A DNA stretch of 15,030 bases from an uncultured delta proteobacterium. GTDB taxonomy: Bacteria > Desulfobacterota > Desulfuromonadia > Desulfuromonadales > BM103. The notes below the pieces were generated by a model that had not been told where the DNA came from, searched no databases, and worked only from the letters and a program-made list of their open reading frames with translations. This document shows positions 135 to 15,030 of this stretch, piece by piece. A program made the position numbers and the translations under genes. How positions within the stretch are numbered: the first letter of the stretch is position 1; each line of letters begins with the position of its first letter. The stretch is taken from assembly GCA_963715335.1 (NCBI GenBank), contig CAVQRZ010000020.1:1-15030 (forward strand). Direction: 5' to 3'.

Positions 135-1405
135 TTATTCCGCCCGTGTCGGTCCGCGTTCCAGGACCCGTTCGATCGCTGCCGCTGAAAGGTGGAGGTC
201 GTATAGCGCCTTGACTTTTTCGTTGCGGGCGCGGGTCAGGTACTCCTGAGCGTCGAGCAGGTCCACTGTGGTCGCGATGTTGGCCCGATAACGGTTCTCG
301 TTGACGCGATAATTCTCTTCGGCCTGGACCGCCGCGGCTGAGGCCGTCGCCAGGTTCTCCCCTGACACGCGAAAGGCTTCGAGGGCCGTCTGTAGCTGCA
401 GCGTCAGACGATCTTCAGTGGCTTTGATTTCCTGTTGCCGGGCACGGATTTCATGTTCGCGCCCGACCAGCTCATAGCGGGTGTCGAATCCGCTGAAAAG
501 AGTCCAGGTCGCCCGTACGATCGCCCTTGATTCGCTGTCGTAGTCGGCATCGCCGGGCTCCGGCAGGGCATCGTTGCCAAATCGGTCGTAGCTTAACACC
601 AGGTCGATATCAGGCAGGAGATCGCCGCGTACAGCCTTGCGTCCGGCCACTTCGGCTGCGAGCAGGCTGTTGAGGAATTTCAGCTCGCTGCGGTTTACAA
701 ACATCTCCTGGTGTAGTCCATCCATTGGCCCGGGCAGGGCCGGTTCCAGAGAGAGGTCGGTAACTTCCTCATCTTGGCCGACGGGTCTGCCCAGCGCCAG
801 GGCCAGGGCCTGGCGAGAGATTTCATGGCGGCCTACGGCGATTGACAGGAGTTGTCGGGCGGTCGCCAAGACCACTTCCACTCGCAGCAGGTCGTTGCGG
901 GCGACCAGCCCCTGCTCCAGCCGCAGCTGTGTGTCGTGGCGTTGCTGTTCGAGCAGCTCCACGCTCTTCCTCTCGGTTGCCACGGTGCGACTGGTCCGCA
1001 GCACTTCAATATATGCTTGCTTGGTTTCGAGGACGATGTCTGCGACGGTGCTGCGGCGCTGATAATTGGCAGCCGAAGCCCGGTGTTTGGCTTCATGCAA
1101 ACGAAACCAGTCGCTGCCGCCGTTGAAAAGGTTGTATCCGGCGCTGGTCTCGGCCAGGCTCAGCTCCCGGCTGTTCAGACTCGGATCGCGATCTCCGCGC
1201 CAGTAGCTGTAATTTGCGTCTATGCGCGGCCAGAAGGGGGCTCTCGCCTGATCAGCACGGGCCCCGGCCGCATTTTCGAGCTCCACGAACTGGTGGACCC
1301 TCGGGTTGTATCGCAGGGCGTCGTTCACGGCCTCGTTAATCGTCAGGGCCTGGACCGGGTTATGACTTAAGGTCAGCAATGCCAGCCACAGGATCAGCAG
1401 GACTC

Positions 1406-1409
<4 letters not shown>
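135..1409 (-). CDS. TolC-family outer membrane efflux protein
   Basis: 424 aa with signal peptide (MRVLLILWLALLTLS...VQA), two OEP-type repeats (YNLFNGG / WTLFSGF; RYRANIATTVDLLDAQ), ATGA overlap with the RND permease stop and a GAGGAG RBS. Confidence 0.93.
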
Positions 1410-4540
<3,131 letters not shown>

Positions 4541-4545
4541 GTCGT

Positions 4546-5613
4546 TTACTCCGTGCGCACGGGCTGGCTGTCATGAATGCGTTCATTGCCCTTCACGACC
4601 ACCATCTGGCCAGCTTCAACACCTTCACCGATGATGCCGGCCAGGGTCCCTGAATGTCCGGTAATCTCGACCGGAACCATGCGGGCCTGGTTATTGTCAT
4701 TGACGAAGATCACGTTCTTGCCAAAACTGTTGATGATGGCATCGCGCGGCACCAGCAGGCTGTCCCTGGCTGCCGCGGTCGGTAGCGTAACCTGCGCCTC
4801 CATTCCTTCGATCAACGACTTGCTGCCCGGGAGGGTGAACTTTGCGATAAAGGTGCGGGTGCTGATGTCGCCACGTGGAATAATGGCTGTGAACTTCCCC
4901 GGCCTCTCCTGGCCGGCAACTTTCAGTGTGACCGCTTCTCCGAGAGTCAGGAAGGGGATGATGCTGGACGGTATGTCGACGTGCACCACAAAACTGCGGT
5001 TGTCGGCGAGGGAGACTACAGCTCCGCCGGCTTCCACCCACTCGCCGGCCTCCACGAGGCTATCGATGACAAGACCGTCGAAGGGCGCGCGCACGGTCTT
5101 CTTCTTCTGCTCCAAAAGCAGCCGGTCGAGACGTGCTTCGAGTACGGTGGAGAGTTTTCTCAGGCTGTTGAGCCTGGTCCCATAAGACTCGAATTCAGAG
5201 ATGGCAACGGATTTCTGCTCATTTAAAGCGGCGAACCGGTTGTAGTCCTTCTGCGCCTGTTCTACGTCAATCTGGTTTTGCTCGAAAGTCGCTCGCGTAC
5301 CGGTAATTTCTGTTTGCAGCAAGTCATCATCAAGCTGTACCAGGCGGTCGCCGGCTTTCACTGAGTCACCGTCATTGACGTAAGCCTGCAGGACAATGCC
5401 ATCCACTTCCGCGGCAACTTCAGCCGACCGGGCAAAGTAGAGCGTGCCGACAAAATTGGCGGTCGGTTTTGACGAGCCACTGACGATTGCTGTTGTGGTG
5501 ACCAGCATGGGGGGTGGCCCGTCGGCCGCCTTTTTCTGCTCTTCGGCGGTCGCGGTGTTGACTGCCAGTAACAGTGCTGTCGCCGTAAAAAACATACAGA
5601 GTGCTCTATTCAT
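4546..5613 (-). CDS. RND efflux periplasmic adaptor (membrane fusion protein), 355 aa
   Basis: Lipoyl-like and hairpin motifs (EVDGIVLQAYVNDGDSVKAGDRLVQLD, VRAPFDG). Start moved from 5790 to ATG 5613 (MNRALCMFF..., signal peptide), which has a GGAG RBS and an 8-nt overlap with the tetR stop. Confidence 0.93.
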   Translation of the reverse strand: MNRALCMFFTATALLLAVNTATAEEQKKAADGPPPMLVTTTAIVSGSSKPTANFVGTLYFARSAEVAAEVDGIVLQAYVNDGDSVKAGDRLVQLDDDLLQTEITGTRATFEQNQIDVEQAQKDYNRFAALNEQKSVAISEFESYGTRLNSLRKLSTVLEARLDRLLLEQKKKTVRAPFDGLVIDSLVEAGEWVEAGGAVVSLADNRSFVVHVDIPSSIIPFLTLGEAVTLKVAGQERPGKFTAIIPRGDISTRTFIAKFTLPGSKSLIEGMEAQVTLPTAAARDSLLVPRDAIINSFGKNVIFVNDNNQARMVPVEITGHSGTLAGIIGEGVEAGQMVVVKGNERIHDSQPVRTE

Positions 5614-6250
5614 GTTGATTGCTCCCGAGTCCGTGCAGGGAAAACTGCGTAATATGTTCAATGATATCTTCAATAAAAGGCTGGTTTTGTTCCGGGCTGT
5701 GGATGCCGCGTAAAATGTCTCTGCTCCGGACGAAGTGCAGGACCTGGCCGGTGATGCTGCTGACGCAGAAAGAAGCGCGTTTCTCGCCAAGCCCAGGGCT
5801 TGCTTTAAGGATTAGTTCCTTGAACGCCCGATTGATCGGGACAATCAGGCGTGAGGCGATCAGGTCGCCGGTGACGGCATCCGGGCCCATTTCCCGGTAG
5901 ATGGTCTGCATGAGCCGGTCGCTGTCCGGTGAGGAGAGACGAGAGTCAAAAAAACTGCGGATATATGCGCGTAAAATTTCCTCAAGCGTCGCGGGGGGCT
6001 GTTGCTGGTCGAGTTTTTCAAGCAGGCTGAGTTTTTCTATGGTAATGCCGTCCAGAATGCGCACAAGAACTTCACGGTACAGGCCGGTCTTGTCGCTGAA
6101 GTGATAGTTGACAGAGGCCACATTGGCGCCGCTTGTCCTGGTGATCTGACGAATGCTGACGCTTTCGAAGCCGTGGGCAAGGAAGAGTCTCTCCGCACAT
6201 GCCAGCAGGGCCGCTCTGGTATCTTTGTTGTTTAATGGCGATTTTTTCAT
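5606..6250 (-). CDS. TetR/AcrR family transcriptional regulator (probably CecR/YbiH-like C-terminal domain)
   Basis: N-terminal HTH ALLACAERLFLAHGFESVSIRQITRTSGANVASVNYHFSDKTGLY; first gene of the efflux operon. Confidence 0.93.
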   Translation of the reverse strand: MKKSPLNNKDTRAALLACAERLFLAHGFESVSIRQITRTSGANVASVNYHFSDKTGLYREVLVRILDGITIEKLSLLEKLDQQQPPATLEEILRAYIRSFFDSRLSSPDSDRLMQTIYREMGPDAVTGDLIASRLIVPINRAFKELILKASPGLGEKRASFCVSSITGQVLHFVRSRDILRGIHSPEQNQPFIEDIIEHITQFSLHGLGSNQHE

Positions 6251-6252
6251 GT

Positions 6253-6288
6253 AAACGTCGTTTTAAACATTGTTTGAAAAATTGTCAA
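6253..6288 (-). promoter_or_regulatory. Sigma70-type promoter of the tetR-RND operon overlapped by two tandem palindromic operator candidates
   Basis: Minus strand TTGACA (6288-6283), 17 nt, TAAAAC (6265-6260), ending 9 nt before the ATG. Palindromes AAACAATGTTT (6275-6265) and AAACGACGTTT (6263-6253). Confidence 0.75.
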
Positions 6289-6392
6289 GAACGAACCTGC
6301 GCAATCGAGTCGGCAAAAGCTGGGGTGCTGGCAAGGATCGGAAGGGGTAAGTTGTTGTCAAATCAGAAAGAAGGCTGACCTAGAAAATAAGC

Positions 6393-7181
6393 TTAGACCC
6401 TGGCCGGCATCTCTTGCCGGTTTCGGCCGTTATCGACCGGGGCCTGATGCCAGTCGCCGTAAAGATACTGCAAAATGGGCGTTGCCGCCAAGCCGGCAGT
6501 TTCAGTGCGCAGAATTCTCGGTCCCAGGTGTACGGCCCGAAACCCGGCCGCCGCAATGTCATCGATTTCCTGGTCGGTAAAACCACCTTCCGGTCCGATC
6601 AGAAGCCTGACCCCGGTGGGCCTCTCCCCGGGCAAGGCCTCTGCAAGGGGGACCGACCCCGCCTCCCACAGCACGAGCTTGAGGTCACTTGTCTGCTCTT
6701 CGATAACTGCAGACAGCCTTTGCATCGACCGGATCTGAGGGAGAAAACTGCGCCGGGACTGCCTTGCGGCTTCACTCGCTATGCGTAGCCAGCGCTGTTG
6801 ACGCTTGTCCATGCGGGCCTCGTTGACTTGCGCTACTGAGTATGCAGTCTCGACGGGCTGAAAGCAGTGCACCCCGAGTTCGGTGCCCTTTTGCAGGACG
6901 AGGTCAAACTTGTCGCCTTTCGGCATGGCCTGGATAAGGGTAATCGGTAAACTGCTGTCTTCGTCCCGCCAGCGTCGAACCACCCGGGCGGACGCTTGAC
7001 GTTTGCTGATACTCTCCAGCTCGACTTCGCAACAGAGTCCCCGGCCGTCGAGCAGGGTCAGGACACTGCCGAGCCTGGTACGCAGAACGTTGTGCAGGTG
7101 GTGATGCGGGTCGCCGCTGATGTCCACCTGGTCGCCTTGCAGAGTTTCAGGCGGAACGAAAAAACGCAGCGGATCACTCAT
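6393..7181 (-). CDS. rsmE: 16S rRNA m3U1498 methyltransferase RsmE, 262 aa
   Basis: Motifs HHLHNVLR, KGDKFDLVLQKGTELGV, EAARQSRR, LIGPEGGF and LGPRILRTETA. Start moved to ATG 7181 (MSDPLRFF), overlapping the prmA stop by 8 nt. Confidence 0.96.
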   Translation of the reverse strand: MSDPLRFFVPPETLQGDQVDISGDPHHHLHNVLRTRLGSVLTLLDGRGLCCEVELESISKRQASARVVRRWRDEDSSLPITLIQAMPKGDKFDLVLQKGTELGVHCFQPVETAYSVAQVNEARMDKRQQRWLRIASEAARQSRRSFLPQIRSMQRLSAVIEEQTSDLKLVLWEAGSVPLAEALPGERPTGVRLLIGPEGGFTDQEIDDIAAAGFRAVHLGPRILRTETAGLAATPILQYLYGDWHQAPVDNGRNRQEMPARV

Positions 7182-8097
7182 GGCTCTGGTAGACGATACA
7201 GGTCCACTCGTCACGGTGGTTGCTGGCGAGCAATGCCAGGGGGAAACCGGCAAAGCCTTTGATAACCGCCTGCTCCTGCTCGATCAGGATTCCGGAGAGG
7301 ACCAGCCGCCCTGATCCGGGAGTAAGGTGCGCGACCAGTTGGTCGGCGAGACGCAGGTTCTCGGCCGCGAGGATGTTGGCAAGCACCAGGTCGTAGGTCC
7401 CGGTAATCTCCTCCAGTGTCGCGTCGGTAACTGAAACCAGGTGGTCGAGCCGGTTGCTCGAGATGTTGTGCCGGGCGACCTGGCATGCCTCGTTGTCGAT
7501 GTCAGTGGCAATCACCTGTCTGGCGCCGAGTGCGGCCCCCGCCATGGCCAGGATTCCCGAGCCTGTGCCGACATCCAGAATGTTTTTGGGTGGTTGCTCG
7601 CTTGCAAAATGCTCGGCCAGCGCGTCCAGGCAAAGGCTGGTGGTGGCATGGGTGCCGGTACCAAAGGCCTGGCCCGGGTCAAGGGTGAGGACCGCTTCGT
7701 CGCCGGTGGCTTGCCAGTCTATCCATGAGGGGCGAATGACGAGACGGCGGCCAACCCTGAATGGTGGGAAATGCTGTTGCCAGTCACTCGCCCAGTCCTG
7801 GTCGGCCAGTTCGCGGGATTCGAGGCGGGTCTTGGCAAGCGCTGGATGAACGACCGCGAGTTCGGAGAGAATCTGCTGTACGGCTGCCAGCAGCGCATCC
7901 ATCTGGTCCGGGTAGATGAAGTAAGCTTTCATGACCGGATCGTTGACCAGGCTCTCCGGTGCCGGCACAACAAACGTGTCCAGCTGTGTTTCGGCGGCAG
8001 TGACACCGGTACAGCCAATTTCCATCAGGTTTTGTGAAACCAGGTCGACGGCTTCGTCCGGCACAGCGAGGCGTATCTCCAGCCATTTGCTTGTCAT
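7174..8097 (-). CDS. prmA: Ribosomal protein L11 methyltransferase PrmA
   Basis: Motifs DW...WQQHFPP, LDPGQAFGTGTHATT, ILDVGTGSGILA, DLVLANILA and LVLSGIL; adjacent to rsmE as is usual. Confidence 0.97.
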   Translation of the reverse strand: MTSKWLEIRLAVPDEAVDLVSQNLMEIGCTGVTAAETQLDTFVVPAPESLVNDPVMKAYFIYPDQMDALLAAVQQILSELAVVHPALAKTRLESRELADQDWASDWQQHFPPFRVGRRLVIRPSWIDWQATGDEAVLTLDPGQAFGTGTHATTSLCLDALAEHFASEQPPKNILDVGTGSGILAMAGAALGARQVIATDIDNEACQVARHNISSNRLDHLVSVTDATLEEITGTYDLVLANILAAENLRLADQLVAHLTPGSGRLVLSGILIEQEQAVIKGFAGFPLALLASNHRDEWTCIVYQSHE

Positions 8098-8292
8098 GAT
8101 GGTTGTTTAGCGAAGTTTCCGGGGCATTGCAACAGAAATTCTTGACCAGCTTGAGGAGGGTCTGAAATAATGGCCTGTAACTTAATGAGACAAAGTGCGC
8201 ATATCGCATATAATAACCCTTCTGTGATACATTAAGCTGCCAGAAGTTACTGATTTGCCAAGTAAAGTCGAGGTTTTCCCTGCTTTTGGTGT

Positions 8293-8320
8293 TTGCTTTT
8301 TCATTAGACTCTGTTAGACT
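8293..8320 (+). promoter_or_regulatory. Candidate promoter for the dikinase regulator gene
   Basis: TTGCTT (8293-8298), 16 nt, TAGACT (8315-8320) with an extended -10 TG, 27 nt upstream of the ATG; GAGG RBS at 8337-8340. Confidence 0.4.
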
Positions 8321-8347
8321 TCACCGGTGTTTTCATGAGGATTTTCA

Positions 8348-9157
8348 ATGTCTGCTGCTGCCCAAGTTATCTATCTTCTTTCTGACGCGACCGGCGAAAC
8401 TGCAGAAAAAATGGTCATGGCAGCGCTAACGCAGTTTCGTGACAGGCCGGTCCGTTTGAAACGGATTAACAACGTCCGGACCAAGAACCAGGTGTACGAG
8501 ACCCTGGACGAAGCGCTCGACAAGCAGGCCCTTGTGGTTTTCACTATTGTCAACCGCGACCTGGCCCAACTGGTCCATGACGAGTGCGACAGCCTCGGTC
8601 TGGTCAACATTGACCTGCTGACTCCGCTGTTGATGAAAGTGGCGCACTGTCTTGGGCGGTCACCGAAAGAGACCCCCGGCCTGTTGCATGGGATCGATGA
8701 GGCCTATTTCAGACGTATCGAGGCGATTGAATTTACCGTCAAGCATGATGACGGGCAGGAACCCCGCAATCTTTACCAGGCTGACATCGTTCTGGTCGGG
8801 ATTTCCCGTACCAGTAAAACACCACTCTCCATCTACCTGGCCCACAGGGGGTGGAAGGTGGCAAACGTGCCCCTGGTGAAAGGCATAGATCCGCCGTCGC
8901 AACTTTTTGAAGTAGATCCGAAGAGGATTGCGGCCCTTGTTATCGACCCACAGAGACTGTTTGAAGTGCGCGCCTCGCGGCTGCGGAATCTTGGCCAGGA
9001 CCCGAAGGCGGCTTACGCCGATTATGAAGAGATCGAGGAGGAGTTGAAGCACGCGAAGAGATTCTTCCGCCAGCACCCATGGGTGGTGATCGATGTCTCC
9101 AGCAAGGCTATCGAGGAGACGGCCAATGAGGTGCTGGTTCGCCTTGGACTCAAATAG
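8348..9157 (+). CDS. ppsR: Pyruvate,phosphate/water dikinase regulatory protein (kinase/pyrophosphorylase, DUF299)
   Basis: Motifs [55 protein letters not shown] and [12 protein letters not shown]. Confidence 0.95.
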
Positions 9158-9265
9158 TTGCCGGTTTGTGTGCTGCGCGTACCGGTTTTGATGATGATCC
9201 CCTGACAATCGACGCTCGGACCATTTTTACGAAGATAGCCGTTCATTTAGAAAAGGAGAAACCTC

Positions 9266-9937
9266 ATGCACATTCTGGTTGTGGAAGATGAGAAGAAAGT
9301 TGCCAGCTTTATTCAACGCGGGCTTGAAGGTGAAGGCTATACCGTTGATGTCGCCAATGATGGTGAGTCGGGAGTCGAACTTGGTTCCAAGAACAACTAC
9401 GATCTGATCCTCATGGACATCATGCTGCCCAAGATGGACGGCCTCGAGGCGGTCAAGGCTCTGCGTGCCAATGGTGTGGTCTCACCCGTTCTCTGCCTGA
9501 CGGCCAAGGACACGGTCGACGATATCGTCGCCGGCCTGGAAGTCGGCAGCGACGACTACCTGACCAAGCCTTTCGCCTTTGCCGAACTTCTGGCCCGGGT
9601 CCGGGCTCTGGCCCGCCGGGGCACCCAGGAGCGCGGGGCGGAAGTCACCTATGCTGATTTGCGGCTTGATCCGGTTGCCCACAAGGTCTGGCGTGGAGAA
9701 AACGAGATTGACCTGACCGCAAAGGAATATGCCCTGCTCGAATTTTTCATGCGCAATCCGGAAACGACATTGACGCGGACGATGATCGCTGAGCATGTCT
9801 GGGATTATACGTTTGATTCGTTCACCAATATCATTGACGTCTATGTCAATTATCTGCGCAAGAAGGTTGACCGCGACTTCACCAAGAAACTGATTCATAC
9901 CGTTCGCGGAATCGGTTACGTCCTCAAGGAGGACTAG
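9266..9937 (+). CDS. OmpR-family response regulator (CusR/CzcR-like)
   Basis: Receiver domain (ILVVEDE, LMDIMLP, LTAK, DDYLTKPF) plus winged helix (LTAKEYALL, IIDVYVNYLRKK, IHTVRGIGY); AAGGAG RBS. Confidence 0.96.
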   Translation: MHILVVEDEKKVASFIQRGLEGEGYTVDVANDGESGVELGSKNNYDLILMDIMLPKMDGLEAVKALRANGVVSPVLCLTAKDTVDDIVAGLEVGSDDYLTKPFAFAELLARVRALARRGTQERGAEVTYADLRLDPVAHKVWRGENEIDLTAKEYALLEFFMRNPETTLTRTMIAEHVWDYTFDSFTNIIDVYVNYLRKKVDRDFTKKLIHTVRGIGYVLKED

Positions 9938-9938
9938 C

Positions 9939-11399
9939 TTGGCCATTTCACCTTTGGGGTCGATCCGGGTCCGCCTGACGTTCTGGTATGCAATGACGCT
10001 GGCTGTCATCCTGGCAGTCAGCGCTCTGTTTTCTTATCATTATTTTTCTCACAATCTGAGAGAACAGGTGGACCGTCAGGCTCGCGAGATCGCCCGCATC
10101 ATTGACCAGCACTACGTTGACACCTTGTCCGAGGCTGTTCATTCAGGGGATTGTCAGGGCCTGCAGACGCTGGCCCACAATTACAACTGGGATGCTTTTC
10201 TGGTCTTGCGCGATGCCGGCCTGCAGGAAATCTGCAGAACAGAGAATTTGATGGAGCGTGACCTGCCGTTCGGGCCGGTGGCCCGCCAGCAGGTCCGATG
10301 GCTGAACGAGCACCTGGAAACAATCGCGCTGGAGCCCAACCGGCAGATGAGGCTCCTCTCCTATCCCTTGTTGGAAAAGGGTAAGCTGATCGGCGTGGCC
10401 CAGATTGGCCAGGAACTCGGCCCCCTGCAGCAGACCATCGAAGAGCTGCGCGTGATCTACCTGGTGGTCGGACCCTTTGCAATTTTCTGGCTCTGTCTCG
10501 GCTGCTGGCTGTTGGCCGAACGCACGATCGCGCCGATCATCGAGGTGACCGAAGCGGCCCAGGGTATAACCGCAGACAACCTGACCCGCCGCCTGCCTTT
10601 CGGCAATCATCAGGATGAGCTGTCGCAGATGGTTGCCTGCCTGAACCAGATGCTTGATCGTCTTGAAAAATCTTTCCGGCGGATCCGGCAATTCTCCGGT
10701 GATGCCTCCCATGAGCTGCGCACGCCTCTCACCATCTTGCGGGGTGAAACCGAAGTGACCCTGCGCTGGGCGAAAACGACCGACGAGTTCCGCGATATGC
10801 TGCGTTCCAACATGGAAGAAATCGATCGCATGGAGCGGATCATTGAAAGCCTGCTGACGCTGGCCAAGAGTGAAGTCGGTGAATTGACGCTGGAAATGAA
10901 GCAGCTCAGCCTCAGCGACATGGTCCAGGAGCTGTACCTGCAGAGCCAGCTCCTCTGCGAAACCAAGCAGATCGAAGTTAGTATGGGCCTGAAGGTCGAG
11001 GAGGAGGTCCGGATCCGCGGTGACGAACTGCGTTTACGGCAGATGTTCCTCAACCTGATCTCCAACGCCATCAAATATACCCCTGAAGGCGGTGAGCTGA
11101 AGATCGTTCTGGCCCAGGAAGATGATTTTGCCGTGGTCGATATCGTCGACACGGGAATCGGCATGCACGCCGAGCATCTGTCCCATATCTTTGACCGATT
11201 CTACCGGGTCGACAAGGCGCGCAACCGTATGGACGGAGGCACCGGTCTTGGCCTGGCGATTGTCAAGTGGATCGCCGAGGCCCACGGTGGAAGCATCTCG
11301 GTCACGTCCGAGGTTGGCAAGGGCAGCTCATTCTCGGTACGCCTGCCTCTAAAGGGACCGGAAGAAGGCAAACACCCGAAAACGACCATTCTGGATTAA
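9939..11399 (+). CDS. Membrane sensor histidine kinase with HAMP domain (CusS/CzcS-like architecture)
   Basis: Two TM segments, HAMP, H-box DASHELRTPL, N-box NLISNAIKYT, DTGIG, IFDRFYR and GGTGLGLAI. TTG start 1 nt after the regulator stop, with an AAGGAGGA RBS. Confidence 0.95.
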   Translation: MAISPLGSIRVRLTFWYAMTLAVILAVSALFSYHYFSHNLREQVDRQAREIARIIDQHYVDTLSEAVHSGDCQGLQTLAHNYNWDAFLVLRDAGLQEICRTENLMERDLPFGPVARQQVRWLNEHLETIALEPNRQMRLLSYPLLEKGKLIGVAQIGQELGPLQQTIEELRVIYLVVGPFAIFWLCLGCWLLAERTIAPIIEVTEAAQGITADNLTRRLPFGNHQDELSQMVACLNQMLDRLEKSFRRIRQFSGDASHELRTPLTILRGETEVTLRWAKTTDEFRDMLRSNMEEIDRMERIIESLLTLAKSEVGELTLEMKQLSLSDMVQELYLQSQLLCETKQIEVSMGLKVEEEVRIRGDELRLRQMFLNLISNAIKYTPEGGELKIVLAQEDDFAVVDIVDTGIGMHAEHLSHIFDRFYRVDKARNRMDGGTGLGLAIVKWIAEAHGGSISVTSEVGKGSSFSVRLPLKGPEEGKHPKTTILD

Positions 11400-11447
11400 C
11401 CTTTCACAACTGCACATTCCATCAGTTGATTACTGTGCTGCTGACGA

Positions 11448-11476
11448 TTGACAGTGCGCACGGCGGTTATTACATT
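11448..11476 (+). promoter_or_regulatory. Sigma70-type promoter of degP
   Basis: TTGACA (11448-11453), 17 nt, TACATT (11471-11476), followed by a GGAGGA RBS at 11495-11500. Confidence 0.65.
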
Positions 11477-11504
11477 TGTTATTATAACCACGATGGAGGA
11501 CATC

Positions 11505-12896
11505 ATGAACAACCTGTTACGCTCGAAACACTTCCTGCTCATATCCCTTTTGATATTCGGCTGGGCTGTCACCGTCTCGGCACAGCCGCCGGATTTTGTC
11601 ACCCTGGCAGAGCAGCTCAAACCCGCAGTCGTCAACATCGGCACCGCCAAGACCGTAAAGCCCAGGGCGCCGATGCCCCCCGGCCCGCATGGCCCCGGTG
11701 GTGACATGTTCGATGAATTTTTCGAACGGTTCTTCCGCAACTCGCCACAGTCGCCGCGCAAGGAGAGATCCCTCGGCTCCGGGTTCATCATCTCTGAAGA
11801 CGGCTATATCCTGACCAATGACCACGTGGTCGATGGCGCAGATGAAATCAAGGTCAAGCTCTCGGACGGCCGGGAATTCACCGGCGAGATTCGCGGACTG
11901 GACCCGAAACTGGACCTGGCGCTGATCAAGATCGATGCCGGCGAAAACCTGCCTGTCGCAAAGCTTGGCGACAGCGAGGCAATCAAGGTTGGTGAATGGG
12001 TTATGGCGATCGGCAATCCCTTTGGCCTGGAGCAGACCGTCACGGTCGGTATTGTCTCAGCGAAGGGCCGCGTCATAGGGGCCGGGCCCTACGATGATTT
12101 TATCCAGACGGACGCATCGATCAATCCTGGCAACTCGGGCGGCCCGCTCTTCAATGTGCAGGGTGAGGTCATCGGCATCAACACTGCGATTGTTGCCCAG
12201 GGTCAGGGGATCGGTTTCGCCATCCCGGTCAACATGGCCAAGCAGATCATCCCCCAGTTGCGTGACGAAGGTCATGTGACCCGCGGCTGGCTCGGTGTGA
12301 CCGTCCAGGCGCTGAACAAGGAGCTCGCCGATTCATTTGGCCTGGACAGCACTCATGGCGCCCTGGTCAACGAAGTCATCAATGATTCCCCTGCCGACAA
12401 GGCCGGCCTGAAGCGGGGCGATATTATCGTCGAATATGATGGCAAGCAGGTCGGTGAGCTCAATGACCTGCCGCGACTGGTTGCTGCAACCCCGGTCGGC
12501 GAAACGGTCCAGGTCAAGGTCTTCCGTGACGGCAAGGAACGCACGGTCAAGGTCCAGATCGGCAGGCTCGACGACGGCAAGGCGGAGCTGGCTGCCGATG
12601 ACGGGGAAAGCGGCGGGGCTCTCGGTCTCACGGTCGCGAATGTGACCCCGGAGCTGGTCGAGCGCTACAGCCTGGAGAGCGACAAGGGCGTTCTGATCAC
12701 CAGGATCGACCCGGAAGGCCCGGCTGCCGAAGCCAACCTGAGAGTCGGTGACCTGGTTGTCGAGGCTGACGGCAAGGAAGTCGGTACGGTCAAGGAGTTT
12801 GAAGGATTGGTTGACAAGATGGCCGCCGGCAAGGTGTTGCGGCTGCTGGTCCAGCGCAGGGCGACCCTGCTCTACACGACGGTGACGTTGAAATAG
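11505..12896 (+). CDS. degP: DegP/DegQ (HtrA) periplasmic serine endoprotease with two PDZ domains, 463 aa
   Basis: Signal peptide, catalytic triad motifs TNDHVV / DLALIK / INPGNSGGPL, and two PDZ domains (RGWLGV, ALGLTV). Start moved to ATG 11505 after GGAGGA. DegP versus DegQ is not resolved. Confidence 0.94.
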   Translation: MNNLLRSKHFLLISLLIFGWAVTVSAQPPDFVTLAEQLKPAVVNIGTAKTVKPRAPMPPGPHGPGGDMFDEFFERFFRNSPQSPRKERSLGSGFIISEDGYILTNDHVVDGADEIKVKLSDGREFTGEIRGLDPKLDLALIKIDAGENLPVAKLGDSEAIKVGEWVMAIGNPFGLEQTVTVGIVSAKGRVIGAGPYDDFIQTDASINPGNSGGPLFNVQGEVIGINTAIVAQGQGIGFAIPVNMAKQIIPQLRDEGHVTRGWLGVTVQALNKELADSFGLDSTHGALVNEVINDSPADKAGLKRGDIIVEYDGKQVGELNDLPRLVAATPVGETVQVKVFRDGKERTVKVQIGRLDDGKAELAADDGESGGALGLTVANVTPELVERYSLESDKGVLITRIDPEGPAAEANLRVGDLVVEADGKEVGTVKEFEGLVDKMAAGKVLRLLVQRRATLLYTTVTLK

Positions 12897-12920
12897 TTGA
12901 TACTGAAATATGTTTTGTCG

Positions 12921-12954
12921 AGCCCCTGCTGCGTTTTGCGGCGGGGGCTTTTTT
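12921..12954 (+). terminator. Intrinsic terminator after degP
   Basis: 12-bp stem AGCCCCTGCTGC-gtttt-GCGGCGGGGGCT with two G-U pairs that work only in plus-strand RNA, followed by a T run. Confidence 0.88.
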
Positions 12955-13000
12955 GTAACGCAAAGATGCAAAGGGGAAGACAAAGGGAAGGGGAAAGAGG

Positions 13001-13035
13001 GAAGAAAAGAGCCCGGCTGGATGGACCAGCCGGGC
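13001..13035 (-). terminator. Intrinsic terminator after the beta-barrel gene
   Basis: Perfect 10-bp stem GCCCGGCTGG-tccat-CCAGCCGGGC followed by TCTTTTCTTC on the minus strand, 37 nt after the TAA at 13073. Confidence 0.82.
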
Positions 13036-13072
13036 ATGACATAAAGAGGCAAATCTTTATCAGCTTGGTTGT

Positions 13073-15030
13073 TTAAAAGCGGTAACCGAATCCGAGGTAA
13101 CCGTAGTAGGCGTCACCGTCTTCGTCACCATAGACATACATTTGATCACTTTCAAATACGTCATAGGTGAATGATGCGGATGGCATACATCCTTTCGGTG
13201 AAGTCGTAGCTGCCACCAACTGTGAGCTGGTACTGTTCATACGACAGATCAGAGTAGCCGTCGATCTTGTTGTTGAGCTGCCAGTTGTCGTAATTGACGG
13301 AGCGTATGCTCCTGGGGGCTCACTGCGGTCTCAGCCAAAGGTGTCGTGGTGTTGTTTTCACCATACACACGGGCTCTTTCGGTGAACTTCCAGTCCCAGC
13401 TGCTTTCCGCGTTGTTGTAGGTGAAGCCAGCATTCAGCTTGAGTTTTTCTGTTGCCTGATAATCTACATTAAGTGCCACGGTGTGAACGTCAGAGTTGTA
13501 TTCGCTGTCATTACAGATCGAGCCAAACTGGCTCGACGAGATGTCGTTCGCTCAGCCATGGTACCAGCCGACACACATCTGGTTCTCCGTCTTCTGCTTG
13601 TTGAATGTGTAGGCCATGGTCAGGTTCAGCTTGTTGTTGGGTGCATAGTAGAGAGAAGCGCCGGGAACATAAGTGTCTTGTTCGTAATTGGTCTCGTCGT
13701 TTTCTTCCATGCGGACCCGCGCAAACAGGGTTGCTGACATGTTGGGGCTCGCGACCCAGGTTGCGTTCACTTTGGCTTCATGAACCTTTTCAGGCAGGTT
13801 GCTTGCTTCGAGCTGGCGGTTTGGGTAAACATCTGTCCAGTACCAGATCGCAGCAGGGGAGCCGAAATCAGTGACGTCGTAATACCAGAGCCCTGAACCG
13901 AGAGGATCTTGGGTGGCCAAGGGTGAATCGCCTTGAGCGATGCCTACGTGACCACTTAAGGGATCACTGATGTCCTGGTATTGGTAGCTGACCATGCCCG
14001 ACCATTGGTTGTTCAGGCGCGATTTAACGGAGACCTTGAAGGTGTTGGTCTCTGTCTCGCCGAGCGCTTCGTCTTCGCGATCGACTTCTTCATACTCGTA
14101 GCCGAAACGAAGGGTTGTCGCTTTGGCAAGTCGGTAAACCGCATCGAAGCCAAGCTCAGTGACTTCACGAGCTTCCGCGGGGTTCCATTCATCGCTGTCT
14201 GCGTAGGGCCAATCACCGTTAACCTCAGGCAGTGCGCGCCGGGAAATAGATCTCTCTGTCGCTGGTGTCGATCTCGTAAGTACTGCCGCGTAAGGACAGG
14301 CGGAGGTTGTCGCCAATCTTGGTTGAAACCTTACCACCGAACGATTCGTACTCAGTCTCCAGGTCGTTTCCAGCCCAGCAGGTCGTAAGAATCCTGGGTG
14401 GCGCTTTTTGAGCTTTCGATGTCGGACTTTACGTAGCTCGCGGTGATGCTGGTAGAGTTGGACAGATCAGCTCTTGCACTCAGACTGTGACTGTCTTTAT
14501 CCGAATCCGGAGTGCGTCCGAAAGGCAGGAAGTCATTGTCATAGTTTAACTGGTCTGCATTACCGTGGTTTGCATCCAGGTAGTAACGTATCGGTGCAGC
14601 ACTGTCTTCGCTGAATGAACGGTTCAAGTATTCATAGTCAACTGTTACCGGACCAAATTTACCGGTTGCGCCGAAAGTGAAGTCTTCAGTCCGTTCATCG
14701 ATGTCCTTGCCTGCGGCGGAAACGTCGGCAGGAGTCACATTTGCTCAGGCTGATGGCCTGTTCCATGCCTTCACGAGTTTCTACTCGAATGCCAGCATGA
14801 AGAGCGACATTCGGTAGATCAGGGATGACCAGAGTTGCTTCGCCGTTATATTCGCGGCGCGTGACAATGTAGTCGTTTGCCATCTCATTGGCATAGGCCG
14901 TTGCAGCATTGTACTCGGTGTAGACGTTGTCGCCAGCGATGCTTGTTGCTAGCCCTGCTGCACTCAAATCAGCATACGTTTTGTCTGTAGTAATACGTGG
15001 TTGACCACCAGCAACGTCATCGCGGGCAGT
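13073..15030 (-). CDS. Outer-membrane beta-barrel (MtrB/PioB-like) protein with a CxxCH motif and a predicted selenocysteine; 5'-truncated by the window and interrupted by five apparent +1 frameshifts. Resembles the GSU2204-family CxxCH-containing (seleno)proteins
   Basis: Manual translation joins the fragments into one protein: ...QAISLSKCDSC[H]VSAAGKDID...ETEYESFGGKVSTKIGDNLRLSLRG...LRFGYEYEEVDR...QMCVGWYHG-U-ANDISSSQFGSICNDSEYNSDVHTVALNVDYQATEKLKLNAGFTY...YSDLSYEQYQLTVGGSYDF...DAYYGYLGFGYRF*. It has alternating amphipathic strands and a C-terminal Y-x-F. 1958 nt minus 5 equals 651 codons exactly. The family name is from memory, not a search. Confidence 0.8.
13518..13554 (-). promoter_or_regulatory. 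In-frame UGA plus bacterial SECIS-like hairpin
   Basis: UGA at 13554-13552, 15 nt, then a perfect 8-bp stem UCGAGCCA-GUU-UGGCUCGA (13536-13518). The loop G lies 23 nt after the UGA and is followed by U. The frame stays open and barrel-like downstream. Confidence 0.8.

What the first reader, a model, noticed from the sequence alone, without database searches (positions are those of the whole stretch)
13500..13580. In-frame UGA with SECIS-like hairpin: predicted selenocysteine in a Cys-x6-Sec-x12-Cys segment
Seen: the ORF apparently ending ...MCVGWYHG* continues in the same frame as ANDISSSQFGSICNDSEYNSDVHTVALNVDYQ, joining the 13249-13479 ORF with no indel. About 158 further residues, including the terminal beta-signal, lie beyond it. 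The hairpin UCGAGCCA-GUU-UGGCUCGA starts 15 nt after the UGA and has no U tail. Established: bacterial SECIS elements are stem-loops just 3' of the UGA with a G, often GU, at the start of a small apical loop. Inference: this is Sec. The only Cys residues I see outside CxxCH in the reconstruction flank it, suggesting a selenenyl-sulfide or metal-binding site. Because truncation would remove the beta-signal, barrel assembly would depend on selenium supply.
Basis: partly seen in the sequence, partly recalled or inferred. Interest (0 to 1): 0.88.

Follow-up and report, generated by a model that had tools for sequence, protein, structure and literature searches.

The report
Known selenocysteine codon in OmcL porin
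The in-frame UGA is almost certainly a real selenocysteine codon in an outer-membrane barrel that partners a ten-heme cytochrome, but this barrel family is already catalogued as a predicted selenoprotein, so the call is right and not new; what the selenium does is still untested.

Summary
Confirmed: TGA at 13554-13552 (minus strand), with an 8-bp hairpin and GUU loop starting 15 nt later. The gene belongs to the GSU2204/OmcL family (NCBIfam NF041027), whose model ends exactly at this codon. Two reviews already list the family as a predicted selenoprotein. TGA stands here in 41 of 43 close and 29 of 29 more distant loci; 39 of the 41 read on to a barrel C-terminus. The stem covaries, Cys homologues exist, and the genome has selA, selB, selD and tRNA-Sec. 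Corrections: the window copy carries five frameshifts, two after the UGA. The 158-residue tail and beta-signal therefore exist only after frame changes, probably assembly errors. Cys-x6-Sec-x12-Cys is clade-specific (2 of 29 distant loci). A model of a homologue gives an MtrB-like 26-strand barrel. Sec tips one long outer hairpin, the CxxCH tips another, and the two flanking Cys face each other across the strand. Best guess: a surface heme/Sec redox site ending the OmcK-OmcL conduit; this is inferred, not shown. The scan has reported this family in at least eight earlier notes on other DNA.

The parts
13073..15030 (-). 3' ~650 codons of an omcL/GSU2204-family outer-membrane barrel gene, ending in TAA at 13075-13073; 5' end beyond the contig; five frame changes in this copy
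   Evidence: NF041027 matches on four pieces; six blastx segments in successive frames against homologues; three-frame translation
13552..13554 (-). In-frame UGA, predicted selenocysteine
   Evidence: TGA in 41 of 43 and 29 of 29 homologous loci; NF041027 ends at position 580/580 right before it; Cys at this column in P0142, P0145, P0148, P0186
13518..13536 (-). Bacterial SECIS hairpin: 8-bp stem, GUU loop 23 nt after the UGA
   Evidence: Fold -13.7 kcal/mol; 92.4% of cells paired, 4 of 8 pairs with two-sided changes; meets the four criteria quoted in PMC13188914
13573..13575 (-). Cys at Sec-7, on the strand before the Sec loop
   Evidence: present in 20 of 29 distant loci
13513..13515 (-). 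Cys at Sec+13, on the strand after the loop, in cross-strand register with the -7 Cys in the homologue model
   Evidence: present in 3 of 29 distant loci
14722..14739 (-). CxxCH heme-attachment motif, with a 1-nt insertion in the His codon in this copy
   Evidence: invariant C195, C198, H199 in all 32 full-length homologues
13076..13108 (-). Terminal barrel strand / beta-signal (YYGYLGFGYRF), two frame changes beyond the UGA frame
   Evidence: G755 and F758 invariant in alignment A1
13180..13326 (-). Single-base indels downstream of the UGA (near 13326, 13300 and 13180) that break the tail in this copy
   Evidence: DNA alignment with the C19 allele and six homologues

Best explanation
The UGA is decoded as selenocysteine by the standard SelB/tRNA-Sec route, using the hairpin 15 nt downstream, in an OmcL/GSU2204-family barrel (sequence evidence very strong; no peptide evidence). 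Read-through yields a 26-strand MtrB-like barrel (modelled on a homologue); termination would drop five strands and the beta-signal, so a working barrel should need selenium (inferred). The barrel is encoded behind a ten-heme OmcK cytochrome and most likely sheathes it as a trans-outer-membrane electron conduit (neighbourhood and fold shown; complex inferred). The two longest hairpins point outward: one carries the CxxCH, the other carries Sec at its tip. I think Sec and the barrel's own heme form a surface redox site, with Sec ligating the iron or sitting beside it, that passes electrons between OmcK and an outside partner in place of an MtrC-type outer cytochrome (inferred, about 40%). In this clade the two flanking Cys probably staple the Sec hairpin as a disulfide (inferred). 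The frameshifts in the window copy are probably consensus errors at the end of a strain-variant contig (about 75%). The confidence given is for the Sec assignment and family membership.
For: TGA at the column in 41 of 43 GTDB loci; 39 of those 41 have open tails of 137-161 aa ending in a barrel C-terminus. Also 29 of 29 phylum-level loci, 14 of 14 family-level loci (some repeat loci) and 15 of 20 further regions. Stem: covariation score 0.307 against 0.116 shuffled (0 of 500) and at most 0.072 when slid; pair 44-54 is paired in 43 of 43 as C-G, G-C, G-U or U-A, an amino-acid-changing base tracked by a Gly wobble base. Cys at the column in four proteins and two loci. selA 629 bits intact, selB 408 bits, selD 367 bits with its own TGA and hairpin, tRNA-Sec(UCA). 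A second allele on contig C19 keeps the TGA and stem, scores 645 bits on NF041027 (cut-off 350) and follows an OmcK gene (NF041028, 435 bits, cut-off 325). An ORF with 8 or more CxxCH lies on the same strand in 30 of 33 loci with enough upstream DNA. Model: best match MtrB 6r2q_B, Z 27.9, rmsd 3.4, 590 aligned; strands 574-596 and 608-631 put C592 opposite C612. Precedent for a heme/Cys/Sec site: MccSep (PMC13510729). Frameshifts as errors: only 1 substitution at 85 covered invariant residues other than the Sec column; other duplicated contigs also show many gaps, such as 85 gap openings in 5.8 kb between C40 and C6; the C6 selA copy is frameshifted while the C40 copy is intact.
Against: No Sec peptide and no reads from this organism. 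Seven read-through homologue proteins keep the CxxCH but have neither Sec nor Cys at the column (P0143, P0173, P0182, P0185, P0206, P0218, P0246), as do three loci (L123, L124, L129). One protein that ends at the site lacks CxxCH (P0175). So heme motif and Sec are not strictly coupled. Heme attachment to an outer loop of a barrel is not shown. The outermost stem pair is unpaired in 21 of 43 sequences, and the sequences are related, so the shuffle count is no probability. The seeds included the residues just before the UGA, which biases towards this clade. The window copy differs at 4 of 89 near-invariant residues against 1 of 100 for C19, so real decay of this copy is possible.
Confidence: 0.93

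Rival explanations
1. Sec is real but works with a nearby Cys as a selenenyl-sulfide redox pair or soft-metal site, independent of the heme.
For: All 29 distant Sec loci have at least one Cys at -7, +13 or in the neighbouring outer loop at -109 to -125. The close clade keeps both flanking Cys: 32 of 32 in alignment A1.
Against: The partner position is not fixed: -7 in 20 of 29, +13 in 3 of 29, loop Cys in 24 of 29. Cys-type P0148 and P0186 have no Cys outside the CxxCH other than the one at the Sec column. The -7 and +13 Cys are in register to pair with each other.
Confidence: 0.35
2. Sec is real but its main role is regulatory or structural: read-through makes barrel assembly conditional on selenium, and the residue has no catalytic part.
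For: The UGA precedes five strands and the beta-signal. Some homologues have Gly or other residues at the column.
Against: Where the UGA is replaced by a sense codon in the closer read-through homologues it is often Cys, which points to chemistry at this residue.
Confidence: 0.12
3. The window copy is a true pseudogene: the codon is an ancestral Sec codon, but this allele makes no barrel.
For: Five frame changes in 2 kb, while the 6-13 kb flank shows only three 1-nt indels against C19; slightly more changes at near-invariant residues than C19.
Against: No nonsense codons in the aligned segments other than the Sec TGA and only 1 change at invariant residues; the gene sits at a contig end; the C19 allele also has one frameshift and other duplicated contigs are gap-rich.
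Confidence: 0.25
4. The TGA is a true stop, or a TGG-to-TGA error or mutation.
For: The assembly has errors, and a TGG-to-TGA change does occur elsewhere in one Cys-type paralogue (L128 has TGA where P0186 has Trp).
Against: No homologue examined has Trp at this column; TGA is conserved across the phylum with open, conserved tails and a covarying stem.
Confidence: 0.02

Closest known systems
GSU2204 / OmcL family, NCBIfam NF041027 'GSU2204 family CXXCH-containing (seleno)protein'; partner GSU2203 / OmcK, NF041028
   Same: Same family: the model covers the protein up to the residue before the UGA; the C19 allele scores 645 bits against a cut-off of 350; OmcK gene directly upstream. Listed as a predicted selenoprotein with one Sec in PMC13188914 Table 1 and PMC9312934. 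Called the OmcKL porin:cytochrome conduit in PMC10553843, where 'selenocysteine' does not occur.
   Different: The window copy is frameshifted, so its best piece scores 249 bits, under the cut-off. The reviews give no Sec motif for the family ('-'); the C-x6-U-x12-C pattern marks the Desulfuromonadales-type clade only.
MtrB of the Shewanella MtrCAB complex (PDB 6r2q_B; TIGR03509)
   Same: Best structural match (Foldseek E 3e-23; Z 27.9, rmsd 3.4, 590 aligned); encoded beside a DmsE/MtrA-type decaheme (TIGR03508, 217 bits, cut-off 192).
   Different: 14% identity and far under the TIGR03509 cut-off (46 against 240 bits). OmcL adds an outer-loop CxxCH and a Sec. No MtrC-like gene lies next to the pair on C19.
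MccSep / ExtKL of Geobacter sulfurreducens (NF040886; PMC13510729)
   Same: Experimentally shown selenoprotein with Sec beside a His/Cys-ligated c-heme, on a D-G-U loop; the OmcL family has H/D-G-U. Serves as a chemical precedent only.
   Different: Periplasmic five-heme enzyme, not a barrel. No match over the cut-off in this genome (best 33 bits against 250).

Membership tests
Bacterial Sec-UGA with bSECIS | In-frame UGA with conserved coding sequence beyond it | tested here: met
   41 of 43 and 29 of 29 loci; in the window copy the frame is open for 100 codons, conserved for about 75
Bacterial Sec-UGA with bSECIS | Stem 4-16 bp, loop 3-9 nt with G in position 1-2, 16-37 nt from the UGA, at most -7.5 kcal/mol (criteria as quoted in PMC13188914) | tested here: met
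   8-9 bp, GUU loop, 23 nt, -13.7 kcal/mol; covariation. The bSECISearch program itself was not run.
Bacterial Sec-UGA with bSECIS | Cys-containing homologues at the same column | tested here: met
   P0142, P0145, P0148, P0186; L127, L128. Seven other read-through proteins have neither Cys nor Sec.
Bacterial Sec-UGA with bSECIS | selA, selB, selC, selD in the genome | tested here: met
   one of two selA copies is frameshifted; the bin shows 6.87% contamination and strain duplicates
Bacterial Sec-UGA with bSECIS | Selenium detected in the protein | not testable with these tools
   Needs mass spectrometry or 75Se labelling
GSU2204/OmcL (NF041027) | Score over the curated cut-off of 350 bits | tested here: inconclusive
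   Window pieces score 249, 122 and 69 bits on successive parts of the model because of frameshifts; the syntenic allele on C19 scores 645
GSU2204/OmcL (NF041027) | Single CxxCH motif and model end at the Sec codon | tested here: met
   Model end 580/580 at the codon before the TGA; CxxC present, His codon interrupted by a 1-nt insertion in this copy and intact on C19
GSU2204/OmcL (NF041027) | GSU2203/OmcK decaheme gene upstream | tested here: inconclusive
   Beyond the contig end for the window copy; met for the C19 allele and 30 of 33 related loci
MtrB/PioB subfamily (TIGR03509) | Score over 240 bits | tested here: not met
   38-46 bits; the fold is nonetheless MtrB-like
MccSep-type heme/Cys/Sec catalytic site | Sec within reach of a c-heme distal pocket | tested here: inconclusive
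   Both loop tips have pLDDT under 50 and distances could not be read from the model

The most novel reading that the evidence does not exclude
OmcL is not a passive sheath but a cell-surface selenoenzyme. Its CxxCH hairpin and its Sec hairpin fold in from opposite sides over the pore and form a His/Sec (or His/Cys plus Sec) heme centre on top of OmcK. That centre would reduce polysulfide, elemental sulfur or another outside acceptor directly, or accept electrons from a partner cell, as an outer-surface counterpart of MccSep, with barrel assembly gated by selenium supply.
Probability: 0.25. Interest if true: 0.75.

Novelty: new member of a known kind. Interest (0 to 1): 0.27.

Why it matters
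As an annotation it matters modestly. Gene callers stop at this UGA: 119 of the 120 listed hits end at the residue before it, so these barrels appear truncated and without their assembly signal in databases. Biologically, a selenocysteine and a heme motif on the outer loops of an electron-conduit barrel would tie one route of extracellular electron transfer to selenium supply. The OmcKL conduit is reported as highly expressed in HotSeep-1, a partner of methane-oxidising archaea (PMC10553843), and as up-regulated on hematite and magnetite in G. sulfurreducens (PMC4070692). That chemistry is untested in everything I found, but this window adds only one more, error-ridden copy of a catalogued family.

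Tried and rejected
Reads: no RNA holder was listed and no run held more than 0.12 of the sampled words. Laying four runs gave only diverged relatives over the gene, so the TGA and the indels could not be checked against reads. Rfam gave nothing at the hairpin, only two weak hits under gathering score at the terminator near 12819-12955. No NCBIfam model matched the intact post-Sec tail of L031. A Met at the Sec column of P0173, which would have supported heme ligation, was an alignment artefact; the residue is Gly, so I dropped it. The TGAs in L127 and L128 are not alternative Sec sites by any test I ran; the one in L128 aligns with Trp. MccSep/ExtKL was not found over the cut-off in this genome. 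I did not run a complex prediction, since an MtrA/MtrB-like pair would pass by likeness and not bear on the Sec. Papers: PMC12013261 and PMC9879109 (Haft) were not held. PMC12013277 had no hit for six terms. The 'OMCL' hits in PMC12977616 are a clustering algorithm. PMC2398784, cited by the 2026 review as the source for this family, has no main-text hit for 'cytochrome' or 'outer membrane', so I could not confirm the original identification; its supplements, which I did not open, may hold it. One search ended in a script error after printing L128 and was completed. Look-ups of earlier findings by sequence and by place returned nothing.

Full report
Observation. The window is the whole of contig C20. 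On the minus strand, the ORF ending MCVGWYHG stops at a TGA at 13554-13552, and the same frame continues into the 13249-13479 ORF. A perfect 8-bp hairpin with a GUU loop lies at 13536-13518, 15 nt after the codon, with no U run. It folds at -13.7 kcal/mol; z is -3.93 for the 26-nt hairpin but only -1.32 for the 60-nt segment. In this genome 459 of 119,000 TGA triplets have such a perfect stem at the right distance, and 3,775 if G-U pairs are allowed. The hairpin meets the four bSECIS criteria quoted in PMC13188914 (passages read).

The frame after the UGA is open for 100 codons only. The beta-signal is reached after two more frame changes, and the gene shows five frame changes over the 2 kb in the window. 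Single-base indels map near 14726 (in the His codon of the CxxCH), 14373, 13326, 13300 and 13180, with a further break near 14228. The N-terminal ~130 residues are off the contig.

Family. Four pieces of the gene match NCBIfam NF041027, 'GSU2204 family CXXCH-containing (seleno)protein'; the main piece ends at model position 580 of 580, at the codon before the TGA. The genome holds a second allele on C19. It is about 70% identical in this gene and 96-100% identical over most of the shared flank, which looks like two strain haplotypes in one bin (contamination 6.87%). The C19 allele scores 645 bits (cut-off 350), keeps the TGA, keeps the stem with one A-U changed to G-U, and has one frameshift of its own in the tail. 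Upstream of it lies a ten-heme cytochrome of family NF041028, GSU2203/OmcK (435 bits, cut-off 325). An ORF with 8 or more CxxCH lies on the same strand in 30 of 33 related loci with enough upstream DNA. The closest named relatives are Desulfuromonadales.

Is it Sec? Of 43 loci from GTDB genomes, 41 have TGA at the column, one ends before it and one error-rich locus has an insertion in the codon. Of the 41, 39 have open tails of 137-161 aa ending in a barrel C-terminus, one runs off the locus and one is cut at 34 aa. That scan was seeded with close motifs, so I sampled the phylum with the family model: 51 of 401 genomes matched, and the 29 best loci other than C19 all have TGA and tails of 136-153 aa. 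In one search, 14 of 14 family-level loci (some repeat) and 15 of 20 further regions have TGA; three read through with neither Cys nor Sec and two have Cys. Among 150 representative proteins, 77 of 540-720 aa end at the site, four read through with Cys there and seven read through with another residue. On 43 aligned sequences 92.4% of stem cells pair, 4 of 8 pairs show two-sided changes, and the covariation score is 0.307 against 0.116 shuffled and at most 0.072 slid. One pair is kept in 43 of 43 sequences as C-G, G-C, G-U or U-A; its 5' base changes the amino acid and its 3' base is a Gly wobble position. Against this, the outermost pair fails in 21 of 43 and the sequences are kin. The genome has selA (intact on C40, frameshifted on C6), selB, selD with its own TGA and hairpin, and a 92-nt tRNA-Sec with anticodon UCA. 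I put the Sec assignment above 90%; no protein evidence exists here.

Error or pseudogene. The window copy keeps 84 of 85 covered invariant residues apart from the Sec column and has no other nonsense codon in the aligned segments, but differs at 4 of 89 near-invariant residues against 1 of 100 for C19. Other duplicated contigs are gap-rich. I favour consensus error at a contig end (about 75%). No run from this organism was found, so this stays open.

How it probably works. A model of an intact homologue (L031, 68% identical to the window's main segment; mean pLDDT 74.6, pTM 0.66) has 26 long strands by my count. Its best match is MtrB, 6r2q_B (E 3e-23; Z 27.9, rmsd 3.4, 590 aligned). Stopping at the UGA would remove the last five strands. 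The two longest hairpins are 172-222, tipped by the CxxCH, and 574-631, tipped by Sec. By the usual topology of outer-membrane barrels (recalled, not tested) both face outward, on opposite sides of the pore. The strand limits put C592 opposite C612, so the flanking Cys can pair with each other. The motif is not family-wide: in 29 distant loci the -7 Cys is in 20, the +13 Cys in 3, both in 2, and a Cys in the neighbouring outer loop in 24; each locus has at least one. Cys-type P0148 and P0186 have no partner Cys at all. An unpaired chalcogen residue on an outer loop of a protein with one heme motif suggests a heme-linked site. MccSep offers a precedent: a His/Cys heme with Sec beside it reduces polysulfide (PMC13510729; abstract, passages and section 9 read). 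I therefore favour a surface heme/Sec redox site that ends the conduit (about 40%) over an independent selenenyl-sulfide (about 35%) or a purely regulatory role (about 12%). Against it: both loop tips are modelled at pLDDT under 50, no distance could be measured, seven read-through proteins keep CxxCH without Sec or Cys, and one protein that ends at the site lacks CxxCH.

What is known. PMC13188914 lists the GSU2204 family, NF041027, among selenoproteins 'predicted with high confidence', one Sec, no motif given (passages and part 1 of 3 of section 7 read). PMC9312934 lists it as an MtrB/PioB family barrel (passages). PMC10553843 calls the pair the OmcKL porin:cytochrome conduit, expressed four-fold above oetABI in HotSeep-1, and does not use the word selenocysteine (passages). 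PMC4070692 shows GSU2203 and GSU2204 up-regulated on hematite and magnetite (table passages). PMC13194489 and PMC5877670 added nothing on OmcL (passages). I found no experimental study of the Sec in OmcL in eight full-text searches; the library lacks most subscription papers and two Haft papers, and I opened no supplements. Earlier notes of this scan reached the same family assignment on other DNA; I looked them up after forming my reading and count them as no evidence.

Verdict. A real Sec codon with its SECIS, in a new and error-ridden member of a catalogued selenoprotein family. The open question is the chemistry, which this window does not advance. Interest 0.27.

Noticed in passing
window 5607-14886 against G000:C19:70612-79890: Two syntenic haplotypes in one bin: 96-100% identical over most of the shared flank but only about 70% identical in the omcL gene, as if the barrel allele was exchanged or diversifies fast; left of about 5600 the contigs are unrelated.
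   Followed up: partly
L127 (G089:C41) and L128 (G139:C19): Cys-type paralogues occur in genomes that also hold a Sec-type copy (L089, L098); both Cys-type copies carry a TGA elsewhere, in L128 at a Trp column.
   Followed up: partly
G000:C6:149754-154149: selA, selB and selD lie in a row; this selA copy is frameshifted with an internal TGA while a second copy on C40 is intact; selD is itself a Sec-UGA gene with a hairpin.
   Followed up: partly
L065-L069, L071 and L055: The Sec loop is one residue shorter in one subclade (hairpin 3 nt closer to the UGA) and ten residues longer in L055, yet the downstream Cys keeps its place on the next strand.
   Followed up: partly
G000:C19:131394-132040: Weak, two-piece match to the N-terminal part of NF041027: a further, distant barrel gene.
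   Followed up: no
G000:C19:80291-82576: The omcK gene starts with a lipoprotein-like signal (LAAC) and a divergent LysR-like regulator gene lies upstream; both labels are my reading of the sequence, not library hits.
   Followed up: no
window 12901-12935: G+C-rich hairpin with a T run after the degP-like gene, between it and the convergent omcL gene; looks like an intrinsic terminator.
   Followed up: no
window 135-12896: Ordinary-looking genes by translation only: TolC-, AcrB- and AcrA-like efflux genes with a TetR-like regulator, rsmE- and prmA-like genes, a kinase/pyrophosphorylase-like gene, a two-component pair and a degP-like protease (names recalled, not searched).
   Followed up: no
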